Positions 1,656-61,286 of a stretch of DNA of 64,000 nt are shown here, piece by piece. The stretch lies in NCBI GenBank assembly GCA_965153355.1, contig OZ231126.1, positions 992,001 to 1,056,000 on the forward strand, given 5' to 3'. Within the stretch, counting starts at the first letter, position 1; every line of letters starts with the position of its first letter. The notes below the pieces were generated by a model that did no database searches, had not been told where the DNA came from, and saw nothing but the letters and a program-made list of their open reading frames with translations. A program made the translations under genes and the position numbers. Source of the stretch: Flaccisagitta enflata (taxonomy: Eukaryota).

Positions 1656-1809
1656 CTTGACTTCACTGGCTGCAACCCTACTACACTAATCATTGACTAG
1701 ATTCTGAGATTGGATGTTAATTTGGTAATCTTTACTCCTACAGAAGTGGATTTCATAATTTCAACGGATCGTATCGAACAAGTTTTATCATTTCTGGAGT
1801 CTGGTTAAG

Positions 1810-2300
1810 ATCCCATTTTCAATTGATTACCTTTTCTTCCATTTTCAATGAATTATCTTTTCTTCCATTTTCAATGAATTACCTTTTCTTCCATTGTCAG
1901 TCATTTACTGCTCCTCCCACCATCAATTGAATACCTTTTTTCCCATTTTCAATTAATTACCTTATCTTCCGTTTGAAATCATTTCCTTTCCTATTCACCC
2001 ATTTTCATTAAATTACCTTTTCTCCCATTATCATTGATTACCTTTTCTCCCATTTGCGATGGGAGGGCGAAAGTGAGAAGAGTAAGAAGAGAAAGAAGAA
2101 CGCACGGCACCACCACATTATACCTTAATTAAGCACACCACATTATACCTTAATTAAGTACACCACAATATACCTTAATTAGGCACACCACAATATACCT
2201 TAATTAGGCACATCATATTAGACTTTGATGTTTCACACCACATTATACCTTTATTTAGCACATCGCAATTCACCTTAAGCACACCACATTATACCTTTCC
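1810..2300. repeat. ~27-bp tandem repeats derived from the donor (1810-2050) and acceptor (2108-2300) junctions of M1 exon B
   Basis: ATTACCTTTTCTYCCATTTTCAA and CACCACATTATACCTTAATTAAG units match the exon-intron junction sequences. Confidence 0.8.
2042..2123 (-). CDS. nAChR-like subunit M1 exon, variant B (M-YNVVVPCVLLSLLTLLTFALPSQMGEK)
   Basis: 82 nt with the same phases as variant A; ttaag acceptor and gtaatc donor; ends in the canonical GEK linker. M2-M4 exons were not found and presumably lie left of the window. Confidence 0.88.
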
Positions 2301-2740
2301 GAGCGCATCATATCATAACCTCATTAATTTCACCTTATTATACCATGATTTTTCGACATGTCATTTACAGCTGGGCTTAACTAGAGCGCGTAGCAAGGGA
2401 CTTGGCAAAATGATGCCTTACAATAATCAATTAAACCTGCCTTATTGCCAAAGTAAAAATAACTAAAAAATCTTTTGAGGAACACCAAAATGTAAACTTT
2501 ATAAGTGGGTATGTCTTTTTAGCGGGTGCGCTCTAGCAATGCTCCACTGTTCCAACGTTTTTTGATTGACCAAGATGAATTTACTCCCAATGAAATTTCA
2601 ATCTTTTTTACAAACCCTTGAAAGAAACTATTGACAGAAAAGTAGATGATCCCATAGAAGTAGCAACTAGTGAGTAGCAACCGTAATTTTGCTTTAATGA
2701 TTTCTGGCAGAAAGATAGATTCTATCACTACCAAAGGGCA

Positions 2741-3322
2741 CAGGGAGTACCACGCCAAACAGGACCAAAGAAAACAATATATCTCAACTTCTATAAATAA
2801 TAGAATGATTTTATAAAAAGGTTCAGATAGCTCTTGAAAAATGATTTTTGTATCTGCATTTTGTTAAAGGCTCATTAAAAAGATGGAATCCTTCTGTATT
2901 GTTTACAGCAAAGTATGGTTTTTACATTGAGTTTTTGCTTGTTTTGTTGTGTTTTGACAAGCATCCTTTTATCCCACCGTCGTTTCTAAAAAAATGATAC
3001 AATTTTGACAAAGGTTATGAGAGAATCCAGATCTTCAGTGTCCTAGCTAAACTGGCATCCATTTCTGACCATTTTTTGTCATCTATATTTGTATGTGGCA
3101 TAGATTTTCCAAGGAAAATCCTTTTGTTGGGATGGAAATTAGCATTTTATGGCAAAAAAATGGTTTTGCTGAGGATATATGTTAACCATGACTAGCAAAA
3201 GTCTGTATCATTTAAAAATTGTCTCAAATTATCTCTCAGAGACAGTTTTCAGAAATGATTTTGCACTTCTAAAAGCAGAAATATATCGTTTTCTTTTGTC
3301 CTGTTTGATGTGAAACACCCTG
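2741..3322. mobile_element. Tc1/mariner-type MITE
   Basis: imperfect ~45-bp TIRs (CAGGGAGTACCACGCCAAACAGGACCAAAGAAAAC vs reverse complement CAGGGTGTTTCACATCAAACAGGACAAAAGAAAAC); TA on the right flank. Confidence 0.6.
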
Positions 3323-3348
3323 TATTTGAAATGCCTTCCGGGTTGTAC

Positions 3349-3430
3349 CTTATCGCTTGAATCAGATGGTAAAGCAAATGTCAGGAGGGTCAGCTTTGAT
3401 AACATGATACACGGAATGATTACATTATAC
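3349..3430 (-). CDS. nAChR-like subunit M1 exon, variant A (M-YNVIIPCIMLSKLTLLTFALPSDSSDK)
   Basis: 82 nt; cccccctcacggtag acceptor and gtacaa donor; NxIIPC...F.LP motif of M1. Confidence 0.85.
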
Positions 3431-3605
3431 CTACCGTGAGGGGGGGGAGTTGAACAATAGAAAATGTAAGGATCAATGGAAGTTCAAACCAAATTTTGTA
3501 GCATGATCACTAAGCAATACCGTAACTATACATAATTTCTTAAGTCATACATGTAATAAACTCCGAAGCTTATTCTTATGACATAACTAAAAAGCAAATA
3601 CTCAC

Positions 3606-3685
3606 ATGTAGTAAAGTGAAAGTCTTTTAATCCTAACCGTGTATAACAATTCTGGAAAAGGCTCAGGCCAAGTGTCAAAAAAGAC
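3606..3685 (-). CDS. nAChR-like subunit loop C/pre-M1 exon (VFFDTWPEPFPELLYTVRIKRLSLYY), no vicinal Cys so non-alpha
   Basis: ctttccag/gtgagt boundaries; phases fit; xPEPxP...I.R..LYY motif. Confidence 0.92.
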
Positions 3686-3756
3686 CTGGAAAGGGTAAAG
3701 AAACGTGGATTTCTCTGAAAATTATTTATCTGATTTGAATCAAGTGTGCGAGCTTG

Positions 3757-3795
<39 letters not shown>

Positions 3796-3816
3796 CATGA
3801 TCTGAATATTACATAC

Positions 3817-3943
3817 CGTTCTGTTGATCATGGTAAATGTCAGCAGTTTCCATTCCGAATTTGCGACCAGAACTGAAGTATCAACTGGATGATCAGAAAC
3901 TCTCAAATCGACCACCAATCCATTGTAACTCCAAGATCCTAAT
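3817..3943 (-). CDS. nAChR-like subunit exon (R-LGSWSYNGLVVDLRVSDHPVDTSVLVANSEWKLLTFTMINRT, loop B)
   Basis: cattcag/gtatgt boundaries; GSWxYxG..VDL and NSEW motifs. Confidence 0.95.
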
Positions 3944-3945
3944 CT

Positions 3946-4065
3946 GAATGATGAGTAATGAATGATGAATGATGAGTTATGAACGATAAATGATGAATGA
4001 TAAATGATGAATAATAAATCAGGAAAGAGGAAGGATACCTGATGAACGATACATGATGAATGATT

Positions 4066-4110
<45 letters not shown>

Positions 4111-4285
4111 AATGAATGAGAAAGAGGAAGGATGAATGATGAATAATAGATGATAAATGATGAATGAGGAATGATGAATGATGAATGATGAATGAGGAAA
4201 GAGGAAGGAAAAATGATGAACGATGAATGATAAATCATGAATGATGAATGATGAATGAGTAATTATGTATGAGGAAAGATGAAGG

Positions 4286-4316
<31 letters not shown>

Positions 4317-4392
4317 GAGAATGAATGATGAATGATGAATGATGAATGAAGCAAGAGAAAGTATAGATGATGAATGATGAATAATGAATGAT
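3946..4392. repeat. (GAATGAT)n degenerate microsatellite
   Basis: direct reading. Confidence 0.9.
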
Positions 4393-4456
4393 TCCCCACG
4401 ATTCTAATCTAGATAATCAATTTGTCTGTCAGTCTGTCAGTCTTCCAATCTCTTAC

Positions 4457-4545
4457 CTAATGTGGCATTTCTGTCTATCAAATGGAAAGAAGCTGATGTC
4501 GATGTCGCAACGAGTTTGCAGTCTCACAGGAACTGGCCAGTGTAC
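4457..4545 (-). CDS. nAChR-like subunit Cys-loop exon (VHWPVPVRLQTRCDIDISFFPFDRQKCHI)
   Basis: tttttcgcag/gtaaga boundaries; C-x13-C containing FPFD, the Cys-loop signature. Confidence 0.96.
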
Positions 4546-4564
4546 CTGCGAAAAAAAGAAAATC

Positions 4565-5040
4565 TAAAAAAACAAAACCAAAAACCAAAAACCAAAAACC
4601 AAAAACCAAAAACCAAAAACCAAAAACCAAAAACTAAAAACCAAAAACCAAAAACCAAAAAAATAAAACAAAAACAAAAAAACAAAAAACAAAAGACAAA
4701 AACAAAAAAAAACAAAAAAAAAACAAAAACAAAAACAAATCAAAAACAAAACCAAAACAAAACAAAAATGAAAACAAAAAACAAAAAACAAAAAAACAAA
4801 AAACAAAACAAAAACAAAAACAAAAGAACAAAAACAGAAACAAAACAAAAACAAAAAACAAAAAAACAACAAAAACAAAAACAAAAACAAAAACAAAAAA
4901 CAAAAACAAAAAAAAAAAAAACAAAAAAAAACAAAAACAAGAAACATAAAACAAGAAACAAAAACAAAAAAAAAAAAAAAAAAAAAAACAAAAACAAAAA
5001 ACAAAAAACAAAACAAAAAACAAAAAACAAAAACAAAACA
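4565..5040. repeat. (CAAAAA)n-type A-rich microsatellite
   Basis: direct reading. Confidence 0.9.
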
Positions 5041-6612
5041 ACAAGGCCAACAATTCAGTTATGGGACAAAAATAACTGAACTGACCTGACTCCTTATTGT
5101 ATCTTTTTATCGAAAACCAGACTTAAACGCAACCCAAAACATACCCAAACCAGACTCAAACGAGACTCAAACCAGACTCAAACAAGACTCAAACGAGACT
5201 CAAACCAGAATTAAACCAGACCGAAAACAGACCTAAATCAGACATAAACCAGACATAAACCAGACATAAACCAGATTTAAGCCAGACTCAAACCAGACTC
5301 AAACCAGACTCAATCCAGACTCAAACCAGACTCAAACCAGACTCAAACCAGACTCAAACCAGACTCAAACCAGACTCAAACTAGACTCAAACCAGACCTA
5401 AACCAGACTTAAACCAGGCTCAAACCAGGCTCAAACCAGGCTCAAACCAGGCTCAAACCAGGCTCAAACCAGAAACAAACCAGACTCAAACCAGACTCAA
5501 AGGAGACTCAAACCAGAATGAAACCAAACCAAAACCAGACCAAAACCAGACCAAAACCAGACCAAAACGAGACCTAAATCAGACCTAAATCAAACATAAA
5601 CCAGACAAAAACCAGACATACACCAGACCTAAACCAGACATAAATCAGACATGAACCAGTCTTAAACCAGACTTAAACCAGACTTAACCAGACTTAAACC
5701 ATGCTTAAACCAGACTTAAACCAGACTTAAACCAGACTTAAACCAGACTTAAACCATACTTATCTTTAATATCATTTCAACCAGCAGACTTTAACCAGCA
5801 GACTTAAACCATTAGACCAGCGGACTTAAACCATTAGGTTTAAACCAGCAGACTTAAACCAGCAGACTTAAACCAGCAGATTTAAACCAGCAGACTTTAA
5901 CCAGCAGACTTAACCCATTAGATTTAAACCAGCAGACTTAAACCAGCAGATTTAAACCAGCAGATTTAAACCAGCAGACTTTAACCATCAGACTTTACCC
6001 AGCAGACTTTAACCAGCAGACTTTATGACCAAAGATGACCATAGATGACCAAAAATGACCAAAATGACCAAAAACGACCGAAAACGTCCAAAAATGACCA
6101 AAAATGACCAAAATGACCAAAAATGATCCAAAATGACCAAAATGACAAAAATGATCAAAATGATCAAAATGACCAAAAATCACCCAAAATGACCAAAAAT
6201 GACCAAAAATGACCTAAAATGACCTAAAATGACCTAAAATGACCAAAAATGACCAAAAATGACCAAAATGACCAAAATGACCAAAATGACCAAAAATGAC
6301 CAAAAATGACCAAAAATGACCAAAAATGACCAAAAATGACCAAAAATGACCAAAAATGACCAAAAATGACCAAAAATAATCAAAAATGATCAAAAATGAC
6401 CAAAATGACCAAAATGACCAAAATGACCAAAACTAACAAAAAATAACCAAAAATGACTAAAAGCAACCAATAATTCCCAAAAACAACAAAAAAATGACTC
6501 AAAATAACTCCAGACGACCCAAAAAGACGAAAAAAAGCAAAGTGTTACGGATGGACCGACGGACCGACGGACCGACGGAGCGGGTTGTAGAGTCGCGTGC
6601 ACGCGACTAAAA
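5041..6612 (-). mobile_element. DINE-1/HINE-like element carrying (AAACCAGACT)n and (AAAATGACC)n satellite arrays
   Basis: AGTCGCGTGCACGCGACTAAAAAA terminus at ~6591-6612, ACAAGGCC end at 5041, satellites inside. Confidence 0.65.
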
Positions 6613-6755
6613 AACAAAAAACAAAAAACAAAAAACAAAAAACAAAAACAAAAGCCAATAGCCAAAAGCCAATAGCCAAAAGCCAAAAACCAACAACAAG
6701 CAAGATCACCTCGCCGTCTGAATCAATGATGACGTTACCACCTTCTTACCCGGTT

Positions 6756-6783
6756 ACAACAACAACAACAACAACAACAACAA

Positions 6784-6866
<83 letters not shown>

Positions 6867-6945
6867 ACAACAACAACAACAACTACAAGTCTACAACTAC
6901 AACAACAATAACAACAACAACAACAACAACAATAACTACAAGTCG

Positions 6946-7035
<90 letters not shown>

Positions 7036-7143
7036 CACCACAACAACACACCACAACAACACACCACAACAACACACCACAACAACACACCACAACAACA
7101 CACCACAACAACACACCACAACAACAACAACAACAACAACAAC

Positions 7144-7230
<87 letters not shown>

Positions 7231-7267
7231 GCAACAACAAAAACAACAACAACAACAACAACAACAC

Positions 7268-7339
<72 letters not shown>

Positions 7340-7340
7340 T
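6756..7340. repeat. (CAA)n microsatellite
   Basis: direct reading. Confidence 0.95.
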
Positions 7341-7345
7341 GTCAC

Positions 7346-7418
7346 CTCGCCATCTGAATCGATGATGACGTTACCACCTTCGTATCCGGTTATGAGGCCA
7401 GAGACGCTGTCATCAGCG
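7346..7418 (-). CDS. nAChR-like subunit exon (N-ADDSVSGLITGYEGGNVIIDSDGE)
   Basis: ttttgtcag acceptor and gtgaca donor; phases fit both neighbours; NAD...V..DG motif. Confidence 0.85.
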
Positions 7419-7892
7419 CTGACAAAAATAAAAAGACAAAGGAATGATCACAAGCAATGACAGCATAAAAGATTCGTTACACTGTAGTAGAATGACTGCT
7501 AGTCCCCAGCCAAAAGCAAAGGAGATGTACAATACATTTGTTACTCCATTTTTAGTCGCGGACACGCGACTTTAAACCCCGCTTTGTCCATCCGTCCGTC
7601 CGTCCATCCGTCTGTCCGTTGGTCTGTCGGTCCATCACACTTTTACTTTTTTTTATCAATTTTATTTCTTTAAGTTATCTAAAGTCATTTAAGGGTATAC
7701 TGAGTAACTATACTGAAAACTATTTTGAATTCTGAATTGAATAAAAAATCAACATGTTTCACATGAATGCATCCGTCATTGTAAATGGACTTTACTTACT
7801 TGTTGTATATGAATATATCTGGAAGCCAAATGAGTGAAGATGGAACATGAATTTTGTAAATGATCAGTGTTTATTACAGATGATCTACTTAC

Positions 7893-7999
7893 TTGTTGTA
7901 TATGAATATATCTGGAAGCCAAATGAGTGAAGATGGAACATAAATTTCGTTGACACGATATTCAGTCTTGTTCCATTTAAGACGTTCATCTGACCAATA
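7893..7999 (-). CDS. nAChR-like subunit exon (YWSDERLKWNKTEYRVNEIYVPSSLIWLPDIFIYN, loop A)
   Basis: cttatag/gtaagt boundaries; WxDxxLxW...IWxPDIxxYN motif. Confidence 0.95.
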
Positions 8000-8607: not shown

Positions 8608-8652
8608 CATATCAATCCATACATTTGTTGTCATAAACTGATTCCGTTCATT
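8608..8652 (-). CDS. nAChR-like subunit 45-nt exon (NERNQFMTTNVWIDM, loop D)
   Basis: aaacag/gtaagt boundaries; matches the DEKNQ..TTNVW motif and the conserved 45-nt nAChR exon size. Confidence 0.93.
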
Positions 8653-8729: not shown

Positions 8730-9474
8730 AACTGGATGGACCTGGCCTGACATAAGTCTAACTTACCAACGAAACGATCTGAGTGGGTACGAGGCTAGAT
8801 TTAACTTTAACTGTATCCGCCGGATGTATAACTGGCCTGACGGACCTGGCCTGACGTTAGTGTAAATTACCAACAAAACGATCTGAGTGAGTACGAGGCC
8901 AAAATTAACTTTTACTGTATCCGCCGGATGTATAACTGGCCCGACGGACCTGGCCTGATGTTAGTGTAAATTACCAACAAAACGATCTGAGTGAGTACGA
9001 GGCCAAATTTAACTTTAACTGTATCCGCCGGATCGATAACTGGACAGACGGACCTTGCCTGACATTAGTGTAACTTACCAACAAAATGATCTGAGTGAGT
9101 ATGAGGCCAAATTCAACTTTAACTGTATCCGCTGGATCAATAACTGGACGGACGGACCTGGCCTGACGTTAGTGTAAATTACCAACAAAACGATCTGAGT
9201 GAGTACGAGGCCAAATTTAACTTTAACTGTATCCGCCGGATCGATAACTGGATGGAAGGACCTTGCCTGACATTAGTGTAACTTAGCAACAAAACGATCT
9301 GAGTGAGTACGAGGCCAAATTTAACTTTAACTGTATCCACCGGATCAATAACTGGAGAGACGGACCTTGCCTGACATTAGTGTAACTTACCAACGAAACG
9401 ATCTGAGTGAGTACGAGGCCAAATTTGACTTTGACTGTATCCGCCGGATCGATAACTGGACGGACGGACCGCAT
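8730..9474. repeat. 104-bp tandem array (7 units) made of the 3' part of an nAChR exon plus its donor site
   Basis: donor positions at 8766, 8870, 8974, 9078, 9182, 9286 (mutated) and 9390, spaced exactly 104 bp apart. Confidence 0.92.
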
Positions 9475-9524
9475 GTAATTGTTGAAAAGTCGCCGTTGAA
9501 GTTTGTATTCTGGTCCTTTGCCTC
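9391..9524 (-). CDS. nAChR-like subunit exon (GKGPEYKLQRRLFNNYMRSVRPVIDPADTVKVKFGLVLTQIVSL)
   Basis: ttgcag/gtaagt boundaries; LFxxYxxxxRPV...VxFGLxLxQI is the N-terminal motif of nAChR ligand-binding domains. Confidence 0.93.
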
Positions 9525-19310: not shown

Positions 19311-19917
19311 ATGGATCTTGAAATGGAGAAAGCCTCTTCAGCTCCTCCTCCTGATTACAATACTGCAGTATCAATGGGTCGATCACAAAGTCCAGGACAA
19401 GACCGATTCAAACCACCGTTTGATTCTACGGCAGACCCACCAGCAACCACTCCAACCCAAATCAACATTGAGCCCATGGGGTGGGCACCAAACCCGTATC
19501 AACCATCAGCGAGTCCCGGACATGCGAATTTTCAACCACCAATTTCAATGGAACCGATTCCTTACCCGCCGGTATCAATTCCTTACCCACCGGGATCAAC
19601 GATCAACTCCATACCCTTTGGTGACAACCCCTGTGAGTCCAAACCCTGCAACTTCTTACGGGGCAACTCCAACCCATACCAACTTCCAACCCGTAACATT
19701 GGCTCCAAGTCCGAACAGTTGCCAACCGGCCTCATTGACACCGACTGCAGGACCATCTGGTGGCCAGTTTGTGCCCTCCCTGCCTCCAGAGGCGGGTATC
19801 AGCAAAGACTTCTTACCCGTGGCAATTATTACTTGCATCTTTTGCAACTGGTTTTGTCTCGGATGTGTCTCTCTCTACTTTGCCATCAAAACCAGAGAAG
19901 CTCTCAAGGCCGGCAAT
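19311..19917 (+). CDS. CD225/dispanin-family protein, exon 1 (Pro-rich N-terminus plus first half of the CD225 domain); frameshifted at ~19600
   Basis: MDLEMEKASSAPPPDY... frame switches to ...KDFLPVAIITCIFCNWFCLGCVSLYFAIKTREALKAGN|gtaagt; removing one GATCAAC copy gives a continuous frame. Confidence 0.85.
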
Positions 19918-20261
19918 GTAAGTTGTAACAATGGGTATGTGTCTACTGATTTGTATGACTCTATCTTTGTCTTATTTTCTTTTATTTCTCATATCTCTAT
20001 CTCTATCTCACCAGAGTATGTTTCTACTTATGACAAGAATCTCGATTGTTCCCATGAAACGCGATTTCAGCTTGAACACATTTTCTTGAATTTTAACCAT
20101 CCCACGAAGTAGCCTCTGAACGGAGCGAATGAGCGGAGTGAGCAGTGCGAGCAACCGAGTGGCCCGCTAAAAACGTGATTGTCATGAGTAGAAACAGACC
20201 CAATATTCAGGGATGAATTGATCTCTACTACTAACTGAATTGGATTTTTGTTGTTTTTTTT

Positions 20262-21625: not shown

Positions 21626-22001
21626 CCTAGCACTATCTAGCTCACAAATATATCGACAAAATGGGGATTAGTTGCTTTAATGACATAAAATCTATAGAAA
21701 TAGGCTAGTAATACGAAAACAGCTAAAATGTCAAAAAATGGTCTCCCGCACATGGATCGGCTCGTATTTACATGGGTCACACTATTTACAGCCACCAATG
21801 ACACTTTTGACTCATTTCATGTCGCCTGCAATAGTATAAGTGAGCGGTATCTGCCCTTCAGTTTCTGGCACTTTTTTTTCTCCAAGAAAATGGAGCTATA
21901 CCGTGTCTTGCAATGAGTTATTATGAGTAGATATGAGCTAAAAACCTACCAGATGATTGATTTAGATACTGGTTATGACGCTGGCACCACCTAGACCAAT
22001 G

Positions 22002-25000
22002 CCCCGGCCTTTTGGTTCGACGCATCTACACGTCGAGCCTCGGTGGAAGGGATTGTTACCCTCCTTGGGTATACAAAATCGGGGTCCGCATACCCAGCGG
22101 GCTGGATATGTGGGGAAATCGCCCAATCTGCGAATTTTCTACAAGGCGGCGTCGCGCCGGCATGACGTCGCCGGATAAACAATGCCAGTCTCCCCTTTAC
22201 GCTCTGTTCGTCGTCTTCTTCTTCGACTCCTCTCCCTTCTCCCGTCGCCTCATCCTCGTCCTCCTCCACATCGGCGGCATCCATCCAAATCCCGGCCCTC
22301 GTCGTCACCCTCCACGCCCCCCTGCCAATAAAATCATCAGTTGGAACTGCTGCGGCATCGGCAATTCGGCTGCCGAACTTCGCCACTTCCTTTCTCGGAA
22401 CAATGTCCTGGTTGCATGCATCCAAGAATCGAAGTTGAGTCTTACCTCGAATACGCCGTCATTTCCCGATTACGCTGTTGTCCGGCTGGACAGAGTTGGT
22501 GGTGGTGGTGGTGGTGGTGGTCGCGGTGGTGTGGGTGGTGGTTTGCTAACTCTTATCCATCATTCAGTGCAATTCCATCAGCTTCCTTCTCCAATTAACG
22601 ACGGTGGAACCGAACTCATACTCATCAACGCCAAAATCGCCGACTTCAACATCAAAATTGCCAACATATACATTCCGCCTGCTTCTTCGGACAATCTCCC
22701 GACCAACTTCAAAGCGTCTCTTCTCCCGCTTCTCAACGACGACGTCATCATCTGCGGCGATGTAAACGCTCACAGCGAAGAGTGGTCGCTAGGAAACCCG
22801 GACAACCGCGGCGATGACTTGGCTAACGAAATTGACAACCACAACTTTGTTGTCATGAATAACCCGGACATTTCCACTCGTCCCGTTTCCACGACTTCTC
22901 CCGATGTGATTTTTGCGCCGATGTCGCTTGCGTTGAATTTTGAATGGAACGCTCACACTGCGCTGAACTCCGACCACCTTCCTATGTCACTCTCATTCGA
23001 CGATGAATCACCTCCCCAACGCGGCGGTAGAACGTACATCAACTTTAAAAAGGCGAACTGGAGCGAATTTAAACGAGAATCGGAAGATTTGTTCTCTCGC
23101 CTGCCGCCTGCCTCTTCATGCTCTCAGGGAGAAAAAGAGTGGCGCCGAGTTATGCAGAAGTGTTCTGCCCGTCATGTCCCGGCTGGATACTTCCGCACTT
23201 TCGCCCCTGGCCTCGACGCCAATTCCGCTTCTCTCATCGACGACAGGGATAATCGACGACGTCGCGACCCAAACGATCCTGAAATCAACAACCTCAACCA
23301 ACGGATTTCTGCCTCTATCTCCAACGCTTCGAAGCAACGGTGGATGGAGGCAGTGAAAGAGGCTGACAGACGAACGAATTCTGCCCGCTACTGGCGGCTG
23401 ATGAAAAATCTCTCCGGAAAAAGGGCGGTCACAACTCCCAATCAGCCAATCATTTTCAAAGACAAACCTGTCTCGAAGAAATTGTCAATTGCTAATGGTT
23501 TCATCAAGTTTTACACTAATATTCGGGAGTTTAAGCAAAATAAGGAATCAAGGAAAGTTTTTAAAAATATTAAGATCAATAACCCTCTTGACCACTCATA
23601 CGTCCCTTACTCAGAAGAAGATACCATCAATGCAATCAAGGCTAGCAAGAATTCCTCTGCTGCGGGTCCAAATGGGATCACTATGCTTCATCTGAAAAAT
23701 ATCGGTCCCCACGGCATCCGCTATCTCACCCATCTTTCAAATTTGTCTGTGCAGAAAGCAGATATTCAGTCTATTTGGAAGTCGGCGTTAATTGTTCCGA
23801 TCCAGAAGCCGGGTAAACCGGCCGATAGGGCAGGGTCTTATCGCCCGATCTCCCTCCTCTGCCCGGAAGTCAAGGTTCTTGAAAGGATGAATTTGGGAGC
23901 GTTAAAATCGTCACTTCATCCTGCGTCGTCTCAGCACGGATTTCGGTCTCAACGGTCAACCATCTCCGCCCTCCTCCCACTCGCTAACCAGGTCGCCTCC
24001 GGGTTCAACGAAAAGAAGCCTGCCAGACGAACTGGTCTACTTTGTGTGGATTTGGCGAAGGCGTTTGACGTCGTTTCTCACTACAAACTCGTCGAGAAAA
24101 TTGGCCAATCTGACCTTCATTCCAACCTAAAAAGGTGGCTTGTTGTTTGGTTGCGTGATCGGAAGGTGCGGTGCATCTACCAGGGGAAGGCCTCTAAGTG
24201 GCGAAAGCTTAAAATGGGTGTTCCTCAGGGTAGTGTGATATCACCCATCCTATTCAACTTCTACGCAAGTGGTGTCACCCCTTCCGACGACTCCTTCTCA
24301 CCGGATATCGACGAGCGATACGCTGACGATAATCATGCTGCTTGCTCTCATGTTGATCCGACCGTCATCTCTGCTGGTCTAACATCTGCGGCGAACAATC
24401 TTGATGCTTCAGCTCGTGAGCTTGACATGGGCATCGCTGCGTCGAAGTCTACAGTTACACTTTTCACGCCTTGGACGAAGCAATACGGCCGCCTCCCGCC
24501 GGTTTCTGTTGGCGCCGATGCTATTCCGCAGGATAACAATCCCAAATTGCTCGGCTTAATCTTCGATCCGATGTGGACGTTTTCGGCCCATGCTATCCAC
24601 ACGGCTAAAAAAGCTAACAGCCGATTAAACGTGCTCAGGGCACTGTCTGACACTTCCTTTGGCCACGATAAGGAGTGCCTCACATTGACCTTCAAATCGT
24701 TGATACGGCCTTTCTTCGACTATGCGGCTCCCATCGTATATCCCAACTACTCTCCAACCTCCATCAAACGTCTCCAGATGATACAAAACAAGTGTCTCCG
24801 ACTTATAACTGGCGCCCACACTGCTGCTTCCTTCGATCATCTCCACTCGGAAACACAAATTCTCCCAGTTGGTCGTCATTTGCAACTTCTCTCCGCTCAG
24901 TACTTAGCTCGTGCTCTTATCCCAAGCCATCCTTCCAACCCTCATGTTTGTTCCTCGCCTCCACCTGGCTCCCGACGCATGAAAGAAACTCTGCGCTCGA

Positions 25001-25605
25001 AGTGCTGGGAATTAGTTGAGCCTTTCCTGCGGGACGGGAGAGCGCCTGACAACATAAAGGAAGTTCAAAGGAATATCCATGTTAAAGTAATCAGTGATAC
25101 AGTTGATTCCTTCGGCCCAAATCGCGTCCTCGGATCTGCACCGCCGCTGATTCATCCTAGCGAATCGTCGCTTCCGAGGCTGACACGCGCGGCCTTATGT
25201 CAACTACGCTCGGGTTTCTGCGCGCGCTTAAAAGACTTCCAGCAACGTATTGGCGCCTCTGACTCCGATTTATGCCCCGACTGTAACGCCTCACCACAAA
25301 CGTCTAGTCATATTTTTTCCTGCCAAGCCAATCCTACAAACTTGACTCCTGCCGATATGTGGGAACGGCCTCGTGAGGTGGCTGCCTTCTTATCCACTAC
25401 TTCCTCCTTTTCCGACCTCCCTGATCCTGGACCTTCCCCTCCTCCTCCTCGACGACGTCGCAGAGCACGCCCCCCTCCCGAACCTCCGCCCCCATAGATG
25501 GTGGCCGTCGATATGGTATAAGCTACCATTCTCTCGATACTTTCGACGGCGGTCTCCCATCGGCCCAGAATCTTCGCAACGTTGGTTAATAACAACAACA
25601 ACAAC
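22002..25605 (+). mobile_element. Full-length non-LTR retrotransposon, probably Ingi/Vingi-like (I group)
   Basis: single APE-RT ORF, no recognisable RNase H, C-terminal Cys/His motif, (AAC)5 tail at 25591-25605. The 5' boundary is inferred and no clear TSD was seen. Confidence 0.85.
22012..25497 (+). CDS. LINE polyprotein: 2A-like peptide, AP endonuclease, reverse transcriptase, C-terminal zinc-finger-like motif
   Basis: SWNCCGI, CIQESKL, GDVNAH and SDHLP (APE); YRPISLL, QHGFR, DLAKAFD, GVPQGSVISP and YADD (RT); CPDC...HIFSC; uninterrupted 1161 codons. The true start codon is uncertain. Confidence 0.95.
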   Translation: MVRRIYTSSLGGRDCYPPWVYKIGVRIPSGLDMWGNRPICEFSTRRRRAGMTSPDKQCQSPLYALFVVFFFDSSPFSRRLILVLLHIGGIHPNPGPRRHPPRPPANKIISWNCCGIGNSAAELRHFLSRNNVLVACIQESKLSLTSNTPSFPDYAVVRLDRVGGGGGGGGRGGVGGGLLTLIHHSVQFHQLPSPINDGGTELILINAKIADFNIKIANIYIPPASSDNLPTNFKASLLPLLNDDVIICGDVNAHSEEWSLGNPDNRGDDLANEIDNHNFVVMNNPDISTRPVSTTSPDVIFAPMSLALNFEWNAHTALNSDHLPMSLSFDDESPPQRGGRTYINFKKANWSEFKRESEDLFSRLPPASSCSQGEKEWRRVMQKCSARHVPAGYFRTFAPGLDANSASLIDDRDNRRRRDPNDPEINNLNQRISASISNASKQRWMEAVKEADRRTNSARYWRLMKNLSGKRAVTTPNQPIIFKDKPVSKKLSIANGFIKFYTNIREFKQNKESRKVFKNIKINNPLDHSYVPYSEEDTINAIKASKNSSAAGPNGITMLHLKNIGPHGIRYLTHLSNLSVQKADIQSIWKSALIVPIQKPGKPADRAGSYRPISLLCPEVKVLERMNLGALKSSLHPASSQHGFRSQRSTISALLPLANQVASGFNEKKPARRTGLLCVDLAKAFDVVSHYKLVEKIGQSDLHSNLKRWLVVWLRDRKVRCIYQGKASKWRKLKMGVPQGSVISPILFNFYASGVTPSDDSFSPDIDERYADDNHAACSHVDPTVISAGLTSAANNLDASARELDMGIAASKSTVTLFTPWTKQYGRLPPVSVGADAIPQDNNPKLLGLIFDPMWTFSAHAIHTAKKANSRLNVLRALSDTSFGHDKECLTLTFKSLIRPFFDYAAPIVYPNYSPTSIKRLQMIQNKCLRLITGAHTAASFDHLHSETQILPVGRHLQLLSAQYLARALIPSHPSNPHVCSSPPPGSRRMKETLRSKCWELVEPFLRDGRAPDNIKEVQRNIHVKVISDTVDSFGPNRVLGSAPPLIHPSESSLPRLTRAALCQLRSGFCARLKDFQQRIGASDSDLCPDCNASPQTSSHIFSCQANPTNLTPADMWERPREVAAFLSTTSSFSDLPDPGPSPPPPRRRRRARPPPEPPPP

Positions 25606-59250: not shown

Positions 59251-59262
59251 CACCCAAGTTAC

Positions 59263-61286
<2,024 letters not shown>

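What the first reader, a model, noticed from the sequence alone, without database searches (positions are those of the whole stretch)
2042..3430. Two alternative M1 exons that swap the pore-entrance linker of a nicotinic-type receptor
Seen: two 82-nt exons with identical splice phases and intact AG/GT sites encode YNVIIPCIMLSKLTLLTFALPSDSSDK (3349-3430) and YNVVVPCVLLSLLTLLTFALPSQMGEK (2042-2123). They differ at many synonymous positions yet both stay open, so the duplication looks old and constrained. Including both or neither would frameshift, which fits mutually exclusive splicing. Established: the -2'/-1'/0' residues before M2 (GEK) form the intermediate ring governing charge selectivity, conductance and Ca2+ permeability in cationic Cys-loop channels. 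The insect nAChR mutually exclusive exons I know of are in the ligand-binding region (exon 3) or M2 (alpha6 exon 8). Inference: one gene makes GEK and SDK pore variants, the latter also carrying an unusual Lys within M1.
Basis: partly seen in the sequence, partly recalled or inferred. Interest (0 to 1): 0.85.

Follow-up and report, generated by a model that had tools for sequence, protein, structure and literature searches.

The report
Two alternative M1 exons, nicotinic-type receptor
A nicotinic-type receptor gene of an unnamed marine animal holds two old, still intact copies of the short exon for its first membrane helix and pore-entrance linker; they are probably used one at a time, which is an ordinary way for such genes to make channel variants, but no RNA data could be found to prove it.

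Summary
On the minus strand lies a Cys-loop (nicotinic-type, non-alpha) receptor gene. Two 82-nt exons, 3430-3349 (A) and 2123-2042 (B), both have AG/GT sites and the same phase, and each gives an open 245-codon frame when joined to the seven upstream exons. They share 48/82 bases and 18/27 residues. They differ at 22/27 third, 2/27 second and 10/27 first codon positions, so the duplication is old and both copies have been constrained. Including both gives a stop at B's second codon.

Mutually exclusive use is the best reading, but it is not shown. The one RNA run of the organism laid no reads, and no orthologous locus could be fetched.

- A keeps the family-consensus first half and the -4' acid, while B keeps G-E-K but has Gln at -4'.
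- B is flanked by 25/26-nt tandem arrays that copy its own acceptor and donor. Three other exons of the gene also have duplicated 3' ends.
- Public predicted proteins of alpha7-like genes already show tandem duplicated loop C-M1 units.

Verdict: a probable new member of the known class of tandem-duplicated alternative exons in Cys-loop receptor genes. Interest is moderate.

The parts
3349..3430 (-). M1 exon A (82 nt). It encodes YNVIIPCIMLSKLTLLTFALPSDSSDK. The acceptor is a C-rich tract plus TAG; the donor is AAG|GTACAA.
2042..2123 (-). M1 exon B (82 nt). It encodes YNVVVPCVLLSLLTLLTFALPSQMGEK. The acceptor is ttaattAAG with no pyrimidine tract; the donor is AAG|GTAATC. The interior is CT-rich with a 9-nt periodicity (2072-2099).
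2111..2297 (-). Tandem array upstream of exon B: period 25, 7.6 copies. The unit is the last 12 nt of the intron (with the AG) plus the first 13 nt of exon B. A 16-nt acceptor-plus-exon-start motif matches 6 times, one of which is the real site.
1811..2055 (-). Tandem array downstream of exon B: period 26, 9.3 copies. The unit is the last 13 nt of exon B plus the donor and about 13 nt of intron. An 18-nt motif matches 7 times, one of which is the real site.
3606..3685 (-). Exon e8 (80 nt): loop C region without vicinal Cys, plus pre-M1 (VFFDTWPEPFPELLYTVRIKRLSLYY + AT). The donor is CAT|GTGAGT. This is the common upstream donor for A and B.
3817..3943 (-). Exon e7 (127 nt), loop B region (LGSWSYNG...).
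   Evidence: 93% identical fragment P0003 in a relative
4457..4545 (-). Exon e6 (89 nt), the Cys loop: C-DIDISFFPFDRQK-C, with 13 residues between the cysteines.
7346..7418 (-). Exon e5 (73 nt). Its last ~45 nt plus donor are copied at 6706-6756.
7893..7999 (-). Exon e4 (107 nt), loops D/A region. Its last ~50 nt plus donor are copied at 7793-7854.
8608..8652 (-). Exon e3 (45 nt), NERNQFMTTNVWIDM.
9391..9524 (-). Exon e2 (134 nt). Its 3' part plus donor is repeated in six further tandem copies (period 104) down to 8738.
2740..3323 (.). MITE-like insertion in the A-B intron with 57-nt terminal inverted repeats (79% complementary). It starts 25 nt after A's donor.
   Evidence: P0009 is an ORF of another copy elsewhere

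Best explanation
The window holds the 5' two thirds of a non-alpha, nicotinic-type Cys-loop receptor subunit gene on the minus strand. An ancestral 82-nt exon encoding M1 and the M1-M2 linker was duplicated in tandem long ago, and both copies have stayed under purifying selection.

The most likely use is one copy per transcript. The donor at 3606 joins either acceptor 3430 (A) or acceptor 2123 (B), and the chosen exon's donor joins the M2 exon beyond the window start. Exclusivity would be enforced by the reading frame. A+B gives an immediate stop, and skipping both shifts the frame, so such transcripts would be unproductive and presumably removed by nonsense-mediated decay.

The two subunit isoforms would differ at 9 residues. 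Three are in the cytoplasmic mouth of the pore: -4' Asp/Gln, -2' Ser/Gly and -1' Asp/Glu. One is a mid-M1 Lys/Leu. These changes should alter conductance and divalent-ion permeability rather than the sign of selectivity, because both isoforms keep an acid at -1'.

Shown: the exon anatomy, the frames, the homology and the long-term constraint. Inferred: that both exons are spliced, that they are exclusive, and any functional difference.
For: 1. Anatomy. A and B have the same length, the same phase and intact AG/GT sites. Each gives an open 245-codon frame with e2-e8, and A+B gives a stop at B's second codon.

2. Homology. Both align over their full length to M1 plus linker of solved nicotinic subunits and end exactly at the Lys that precedes M2. 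Pfam Neur_chan_memb gives E 2e-4 and 5e-4.

3. Age and constraint.
- Differences by codon position are 10/2/22 of 27 each, with pS 0.84 (saturated) and pN 0.28. When 34 differences were placed at random, 0 of 20000 trials left 9 or fewer residue changes.
- Against 21 outgroup genes, A has only 3 states never seen outside (K12, S25, D26) and B has 4 (V4, L9, Q23, M24). A's first 11 residues equal the outgroup majority.
- A neutral branch of 0.3 substitutions per site would leave A with 4 or fewer changes and no stop in 0.015% of trials, and B with 7 or fewer in 2%.

4. Splice sites. Donors of 5 of the 7 upstream exons match GT[AG]AGT at 5-6 of 6 positions. A matches 3/6 and B 4/6, and e5 also 4/6. 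Weaker sites are usual for regulated exons; that generalisation is my own knowledge.

5. Precedent. Tandem-duplicated mutually exclusive exons are documented in insect nAChR genes, including pore-lining TM2 (passages of PMC1919356, PMC8505678, PMC2064938, PMC2045683). 7 of the 13 fetched hits are read-through models with two tandem loop C-M1-linker units.
Against: - There is no transcript evidence. The only run labelled as the organism laid 0 reads (about 6% of the run was read), and the marine metatranscriptome contigs touch only repeats.
- No orthologous locus was available to show that both copies persist in relatives. All 21 related loci found are distant genes with a single M1.
- Exon B's acceptor is poor: AAG with no pyrimidine tract. 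It is preceded by five further matches to the acceptor-plus-exon-start motif that would give stops if used.
- Exon A has a Lys in the middle of M1, a weak donor (GTACAA) and a transposon 25 nt downstream.
- The constraint tests cover the whole time since duplication and cannot exclude a recent death of one copy.
- The third-position divergence in B may be inflated by its CT-rich 9-nt periodicity.
Confidence: 0.55

Rival explanations
1. Exon B is the only working M1 exon. Exon A is a silent or recently retired duplicate that still looks intact.
For: - B carries the canonical G-E-K found in 21 of 21 outgroup genes.
- A has Ser-Asp at -2'/-1' and a Lys at an M1 position that is never charged in the outgroups.
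- A's donor is the weakest of the gene, matching 3/6 positions.
- A MITE-like element sits 25 nt after A's donor.
Against: - A has the better acceptor: a C-rich tract plus TAG.
- Only 3 residue states in A are never seen in outgroups, and its first 11 residues equal the family majority. It also keeps the -4' acid that B lost.
- With third positions saturated, a long-dead copy would not look like this; P is about 1e-4 at 0.3 substitutions per site.
- Only a very recent silencing remains possible.
Confidence: 0.15
2. Exon A is the working M1 exon. Exon B is being eroded by the local tandem-repeat process and is rarely or never included productively.
For: - B's acceptor is AAG without a pyrimidine tract. 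The 174 nt upstream of it are copies of its own first 13 nt plus acceptor, and each such copy would add 25 nt and a stop.
- B's donor is followed by six further matches to the donor motif.
- B's interior is a CT-rich 9-nt repeat.
- B lost the -4' acid present in 21/21 outgroups.
Against: - The frame is open, and G-E-K is intact.
- Five of B's nine differences from A are conservative (I>V three times, M>L, E/D).
- The second codon position differs from A at only 2 of 27 sites.
- Boundary-spanning duplications are also tolerated at three constitutive exons of the same gene, so the arrays by themselves do not mark a dead exon.
Confidence: 0.2
3. Both exons are used, and the choice is steered by the unusual sequence around B. 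Arrays of decoy acceptors and donors, together with pairing between B's pyrimidine-rich body and the purine-rich downstream array, would set how often B is recognised.
For: - The arrays are confined to exon B's two ends: 6 and 7 motif matches against 0.03 and 0.10 expected.
- The predicted fold of 1805-2305 pairs B's CT-rich interior with GA-rich array units; z is -2.6, and 0 of 100 shuffles fold as well.
Against: - The window is full of tandem repeats, and three other exons have duplicated 3' ends. A neutral mutational origin is therefore the simpler reading.
- Folding energies of AU- and GA/CU-rich repeats are weak evidence.
- There is no comparative or RNA support.
Confidence: 0.06

Closest known systems
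Insect nAChR alpha6 mutually exclusive exons 8a/8b/8c (and 3a/3b)
   Same: Tandem-duplicated homologous exons of a nicotinic subunit gene are used one at a time. They are ancient and conserved at the protein level despite nucleotide divergence. They alter pore-forming residues; Tribolium exon 8c replaces a conserved Glu (passages of PMC1919356, PMC6393475, PMC8505678, PMC2064938).
   Different: Those exons encode TM2 and the TM2-TM3 loop (or loop D) of an alpha subunit, and their use is shown by RT-PCR. Here the pair encodes M1 plus the M1-M2 linker of a non-alpha subunit, has a length that is not a multiple of three, and has no RNA evidence.
Bombyx mori alpha8 alternative exon 7
   Same: A lineage-specific tandem duplication of a transmembrane-coding exon in a nicotinic subunit gene (passage of PMC2045683).
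   Different: It lies at TM2-TM3, and its copies are 86% identical, so the duplication is recent. Here the copies share 59% of bases and their third positions are saturated, so the duplication is old.
Unnamed alpha7/alpha6-like genes whose predicted proteins contain two tandem loop C-M1-linker units (P0004, P0005, P0007, P0008, P0010, P0011, P0012)
   Same: The duplicated unit includes M1 and the linker up to the start of M2. This is the same part of the protein as here, and the two copies differ in the linker residues before G-E-K.
   Different: The unit is longer because it includes loop C, and it is in frame when both copies are read. It belongs to alpha-type subunits with vicinal Cys, and all copies keep G-E-K. 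These are database gene models without names or published analysis that I could find, so their splicing is equally unproven.
Vertebrate nicotinic subunits with solved structures (beta2, alpha4, alpha7, Torpedo/muscle alpha)
   Same: Both exon peptides align colinearly to their M1 and linker, ending at the Lys before M2. The rings of charge at -4'/-5' and -1' are established determinants of conductance and Ca2+ permeability (PMC2217203 abstract in listing; PMC5447003 passages).
   Different: In vertebrates these positions vary between paralogous subunit genes. I know of no case where they vary between splice forms of one gene.

Membership tests
Cys-loop (pentameric) ligand-gated ion channel | Extracellular ligand-binding domain (Pfam Neur_chan_LBD) | tested here: met
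   Exon e4 scores 41 bits (E 1.8e-10) and e6 scores 30.5 bits (E 3.1e-7), both above the 26-bit cut-off. Exon e7 is weak at 12 bits.
Cys-loop (pentameric) ligand-gated ion channel | Two cysteines separated by 13 residues (the Cys loop) | tested here: met
   Exon e6 reads C-DIDISFFPFDRQK-C.
Cys-loop (pentameric) ligand-gated ion channel | Four transmembrane helices M1-M4 | tested here: inconclusive
   M1 is present twice. Neur_chan_memb scores 22.2 and 20.7 bits, below the 28.1 cut-off because the pieces are only 27 residues; the PDB matches are clear. M2-M4 lie outside the window.
Nicotinic acetylcholine receptor subfamily | Closest solved relatives are nAChR subunits rather than GABA/Gly/GluCl receptors | tested here: met
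   All 60 chains listed for exon A and all 60 for exon B are acetylcholine-receptor subunits. The nearest family member, P0018, is closest to alpha7 (E 9e-27). The ligand itself is not testable here.
Nicotinic acetylcholine receptor subfamily | Alpha type: vicinal Cys-Cys in loop C | tested here: not met
   Exon e8 reads VFFDTWPEPFPELLY with no Cys pair, so the subunit is non-alpha.
Cation-selective nAChR pore | Acidic residue at -1' (the G-E-K motif before M2) | tested here: met
   B has G-E-K. A has S-D-K, which keeps an acid at -1'. The rest of the pore (M2) was not seen.
Mutually exclusive tandem-duplicated exons | Adjacent homologous exons of equal length and phase with intact splice sites | tested here: met
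   Both are 82 nt with AG/GT sites. They are 1225 nt apart with no other exon between them.
Mutually exclusive tandem-duplicated exons | Joint inclusion or joint skipping is unproductive | tested here: met
   A+B gives a stop at the second codon of B. Skipping both leaves e8 in phase 2 against an exon that must start in phase 0; this is inferred, because the M2 exon was not seen.
Mutually exclusive tandem-duplicated exons | Transcripts contain exactly one of the two exons, and both forms occur | not testable with these tools
   The run search and the read laying are capped at one call each. Run X19 laid 0 reads and the other runs touched only repeats.
Mutually exclusive tandem-duplicated exons | Both copies conserved in related species | tested here: inconclusive
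   Constraint on both is inferred from codon-position pattern and outgroups. No orthologous locus was available; the 21 loci found are distant genes with one M1 each.

The most novel reading that the evidence does not exclude
Exon choice at this locus may be set by a device not described for mutually exclusive exons. Exon B would be wrapped in tandem arrays of its own acceptor and donor, which act as decoy sites that yield unproductive products. Its pyrimidine-rich body could also pair with the purine-rich downstream array. Together these would titrate how often B rather than A reaches the mRNA, and so tune the charge of the cytoplasmic pore mouth (-4' Asp/Gln, -1' Asp/Glu) of one receptor subunit.
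Probability: 0.06. Interest if true: 0.65.

Novelty: new member of a known kind. Interest (0 to 1): 0.35.

Why it matters
If both exons are used, one gene would make two subunits that differ only in M1 and in the rings of charge at the inner mouth of the pore. That would be a natural experiment on how the -4', -2' and -1' positions and a mid-M1 Lys shape conductance and Ca2+ permeability.

It would also extend the known repertoire of alternative exons in nicotinic receptor genes (loop D, the Cys-loop region, TM2) to M1 and the linker, and to a non-insect animal.

The boundary-spanning tandem duplications in the same gene illustrate how a repeat-prone genome can multiply splice sites without destroying exons. 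The same raw process presumably made the exon pair in the first place.

Tried and rejected
- **Whole genome.** None is held, so the M2 exon and paralogues could not be examined.
- **RNA evidence.**
  - The look-up of sequencing runs gave 18 marine or seawater metatranscriptome rows with shares of 0.05-0.14, plus one raw poly-A run of 'organism A' that was added by study.
  - Read laying on 1700-3950 laid 0 reads from X19. The 9 contigs laid from X1, X2 and X5 lie on the arrays, on the small inverted-repeat element at 2497-2550 or on low-complexity sequence.
  - There were no joints, so this gave no verdict. Both tools are now at their caps.
- **Protein word-index searches.**
  - The exon-B ORF with 'longer' gave 21 candidates and none scoring.
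  - The exon-B ORF with 'near' gave nothing.
  - Exon e7 with 'longer' gave one 167-aa genomic ORF of a close relative (93% identity, P0003). Its DNA could not be fetched.
- **Metagenome scan.** A scan with the A/B alignment gave only distant genes in which M1 is continuous with the flanking coding sequence. These are useful as outgroups but not as orthologues.
- **Exhaustive HMMER search.** The exon-A ORF gave 15 hits and no orthologue.
- **Earlier findings of the scan.** Nothing was found by place, by sequence or by words.
- **Docking/selector-type RNA pairing.** The only long inverted repeats in 1800-3720 are transposon termini. I do not claim they regulate splicing.
- **Haplotype or assembly duplicate.** Rejected, because the copies share only 59% of bases.
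- **Second gene copy.** Rejected, because no other receptor exon lies between or after the pair.

Full report
**What is there.**

The finding lies in a gene on the minus strand. I mapped the exons by reading the sequence and checked them by assembling them in a script.

| Exon | Coordinates | Length (nt) |
|---|---|---|
| e2 | 9524-9391 | 134 |
| e3 | 8652-8608 | 45 |
| e4 | 7999-7893 | 107 |
| e5 | 7418-7346 | 73 |
| e6 | 4545-4457 | 89 |
| e7 | 3943-3817 | 127 |
| e8 | 3685-3606 | 80 |
| A | 3430-3349 | 82 |
| B | 2123-2042 | 82 |

All nine have AG acceptors and GT donors. Exons e2-e8 followed by A, or by B, give 735 nt with no stop. A followed by B gives a stop at B's second codon.

Several features place the gene among Cys-loop receptors:
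- Exons e4 and e6 pass Pfam's cut-off for the ligand-binding domain of neurotransmitter-gated channels.
- Exon e6 carries the Cys loop, with 13 residues between the cysteines.
- Exon e8 lacks the vicinal cysteines of alpha subunits.
- The two 27-residue peptides align over their whole length with M1 and the M1-M2 linker of solved nicotinic subunits, ending at the Lys that precedes M2. All 60 chains listed in each search are acetylcholine-receptor subunits.

No M2-M4 exon is in the window.

**Age and constraint.**

A and B share 48 of 82 bases and 18 of 27 residues, and 13 of the 18 shared residues use different codons. Differences fall at 10, 2 and 22 of the 27 first, second and third codon positions. 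pS is 0.84, which is saturated, and pN is 0.28. When 34 differences were scattered at random, none of 20000 trials left 9 or fewer residue changes.

For polarity I used the M1 stretch of 21 related genes recovered from metagenome contigs. At the nine positions where A and B differ:
- A has the outgroup state at six positions and B at five.
- A has three states never seen outside (Lys12, Ser25, Asp26).
- B has four states never seen outside (Val4, Leu9, Gln23, Met24).
- Both share Ala19, which is seen in none of the 21.

A's first eleven residues equal the outgroup majority. A simulated neutral branch of 0.3 substitutions per site leaves A-like conservation in 0.015% of trials and B-like conservation in 2%.

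Both copies have therefore been under purifying selection for most of their separate history. A recent death of either copy cannot be excluded by such tests. B's CT-rich interior with a 9-nt period may exaggerate its synonymous divergence.

**What the swap changes.**

Counting back from the Lys at 0', A reads Ser-Asp-Ser-Ser-Asp-Lys and B reads Ser-Gln-Met-Gly-Glu-Lys. A keeps the acid at -4', which is Glu or Asp in 21/21 outgroups, and has Asp rather than Glu at -1' and Ser rather than Gly at -2'. B keeps Gly-Glu-Lys but has lost the -4' acid.

The rings of charge at -5'/-4' and at -1' are established determinants of cation conduction and Ca2+ permeability. The sources are the abstract of PMC2217203, seen in the listing, and passages of PMC5447003, which include the alpha7 E237A result.

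Because both forms keep an acid at -1', I expect a change in conductance or divalent permeability, not in the sign of selectivity. This is inference. A also has Lys at an M1 position that is never charged in the outgroups and that aligns with Ser or Phe in solved subunits.

**Are both exons used?**

This could not be settled.
- No genome is held.
- The run search returned marine metatranscriptomes with small shares, plus one raw poly-A run of the coded organism.
- When laid on 1700-3950, that run gave 0 reads from the roughly 6% of it that was read. The contigs of the other three runs lie only on the arrays, a small repeat and low-complexity sequence, with no joints. This is no test either way.
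- Word-index protein searches found no protein carrying either exon. They found one genomic ORF of a close relative covering exon e7 at 93% identity, whose DNA I could not fetch.
- The 21 metagenome loci are distant genes. Their other exons are about 28-52% identical to the window's, apart from the short conserved e3 at 64-71%. In them M1 is continuous with the flanking coding sequence, and each has a single M1.

Indirect signs fit regulated exons.
- Five of the seven upstream donors match GT[AG]AGT at 5-6 of 6 positions, whereas A matches 3 and B 4 (e5 also matches 4).
- All seven upstream acceptors are pyrimidine tract plus CAG or TAG. A has a C-rich tract plus TAG. B has AAG with no tract.

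**The surroundings of exon B.**

B is flanked by two tandem arrays built from its own ends.
- Upstream, at 2111-2297, there are 7.6 copies of a 25-nt unit. The unit is the last 12 intron bases, including the AG, plus the first 13 exon bases.
- Downstream, at 1811-2055, there are 9.3 copies of a 26-nt unit. The unit is the last 13 exon bases plus the donor and about 13 intron bases.

The boundary motifs occur 6 and 7 times against 0.03 and 0.10 expected, and nowhere else in the window. Using an upstream acceptor copy would add 25, 50 or 75 nt containing a stop. Using the next donor copy would shift the frame.

This is not peculiar to B:
- the 3' part plus donor of e2 has six further tandem copies (period 104, 89-93% identical);
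- the end of e4 is present twice (98% identical);
- the end of e5 is present twice (92% identical).

Exons e3, e6, e7, e8 and A have no such copies.

The window is dense with tandem repeats. The simplest reading is therefore a high local rate of tandem duplication, filtered by selection so that only duplications leaving one intact exon copy survive. The A/B pair is then an older product of the same process.

A regulatory role for the arrays is possible but unsupported. The predicted fold of 1805-2305 pairs B's CT-rich body with GA-rich array units (z -2.6).

The A-B intron also holds a 584-bp MITE-like element with 57-nt inverted termini, 25 nt after A's donor.

**Comparison with what is known.**

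The papers below were read as passages only.
- Insect alpha6 has mutually exclusive exons 3a/3b (loop D) and 8a/8b/8c (TM2 and the TM2-TM3 loop). They are conserved for about 300 My and used unequally. Tribolium 8c replaces a conserved Glu (PMC1919356, PMC6393475, PMC8505678, PMC2064938).
- Alpha4 has alternative exon 4.
- Bombyx alpha8 has a recent duplicate of exon 7 at TM2-TM3 (PMC2045683).

My three full-text searches for a mutually exclusive M1 exon in a nicotinic gene found none. The library is limited and supplements were closed.

The exhaustive protein search with the exon-A ORF returned 15 hits. Of the 13 I fetched, 7 are gene models that read through two tandem loop C-M1-linker units of alpha7-like genes. 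Duplication of the M1-coding unit is thus recurrent in this superfamily, though apparently undescribed.

The nearest family member found, P0018, has Arg-Glu-Lys in the linker and is as similar to A (19/27) as to B (19/27). The 19/27 counts are my own, made by hand from the sequence printed. This again points to an old split.

**Verdict.**

The best explanation, at about 0.55, is a pair of tandem-duplicated exons whose exclusivity is enforced by the reading frame. They would give two pore-mouth and M1 variants of one non-alpha nicotinic-type subunit.

The main rivals are that A (0.15) or B (0.20) is no longer used. In kind this is a new member of a well-known class. The open points are RNA usage and conservation in relatives. 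The boundary-spanning repeat arrays are the most unusual thing seen and deserve a genome-wide look.

Noticed in passing
window 8738-9470, 7793-7854, 6706-6756, 2111-2297, 1811-2055 (minus strand): Four of the nine mapped exons (e2, e4, e5, B) have extra copies of their own ends, including the splice site. Further copies of e2's 3' part plus donor number six, and e4 and e5 each have one. There are five further matches to B's acceptor motif and six to its donor motif. All lie in the adjoining intron. Such copies multiply potential splice sites. Whether this is frequent genome-wide is unknown.
   Followed up: partly
window 2740-3323: A MITE-like element with 57-nt terminal inverted repeats (79% complementary) lies in the A-B intron. 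The predicted RNA fold closes the termini into a long stem (z -5.2). An ORF from another copy of the element exists in a public protein set (P0009, 79% identity over 34 residues).
   Followed up: partly
window 2367-2389 / 2528-2550: A second small inverted-repeat element. Contigs of marine metatranscriptomes match 2497-2550 at about 90%, which suggests a dispersed repeat shared with organisms in the plankton.
   Followed up: no
proteins P0004, P0005, P0007, P0008, P0010, P0011, P0012: Public gene models of alpha7/alpha6-like nicotinic subunits read through two tandem copies of the loop C-M1-linker unit. These are probably unrecognised alternative exon pairs in other animals.
   Followed up: no
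protein P0003: A 167-aa ORF from a 2046-nt public contig contains exon e7 at 93% identity, flanked by unrelated read-through. A close relative of the window's organism therefore exists in public assemblies, but its DNA could not be fetched here.
   Followed up: no
window 21979-25494 (+): An open 1172-codon frame of a non-LTR retrotransposon: endonuclease plus reverse transcriptase (Pfam Exo_endo_phos, RVT_1).
   Followed up: partly
window about 19800-19925 (+) and 59262-59600 (-): There are exons of two other genes. One is a CD225/interferon-induced-transmembrane-like segment preceded by a Pro-rich region. The other is an XK-related protein segment at the end of a long ORF that also contains repeat-encoded stretches.
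   Followed up: no
window 3945-7340: The introns between e7 and e5 are almost wholly tandem repeats: a 7-mer in 64 copies, an A-rich 6/7-mer in about 75 copies, an 11-mer in 59 copies, a 14-mer in 16 copies and long TTG/CAA runs. The same TTG runs recur at 14.5, 17.3, 32.7 and 48.5 kb.
   Followed up: no
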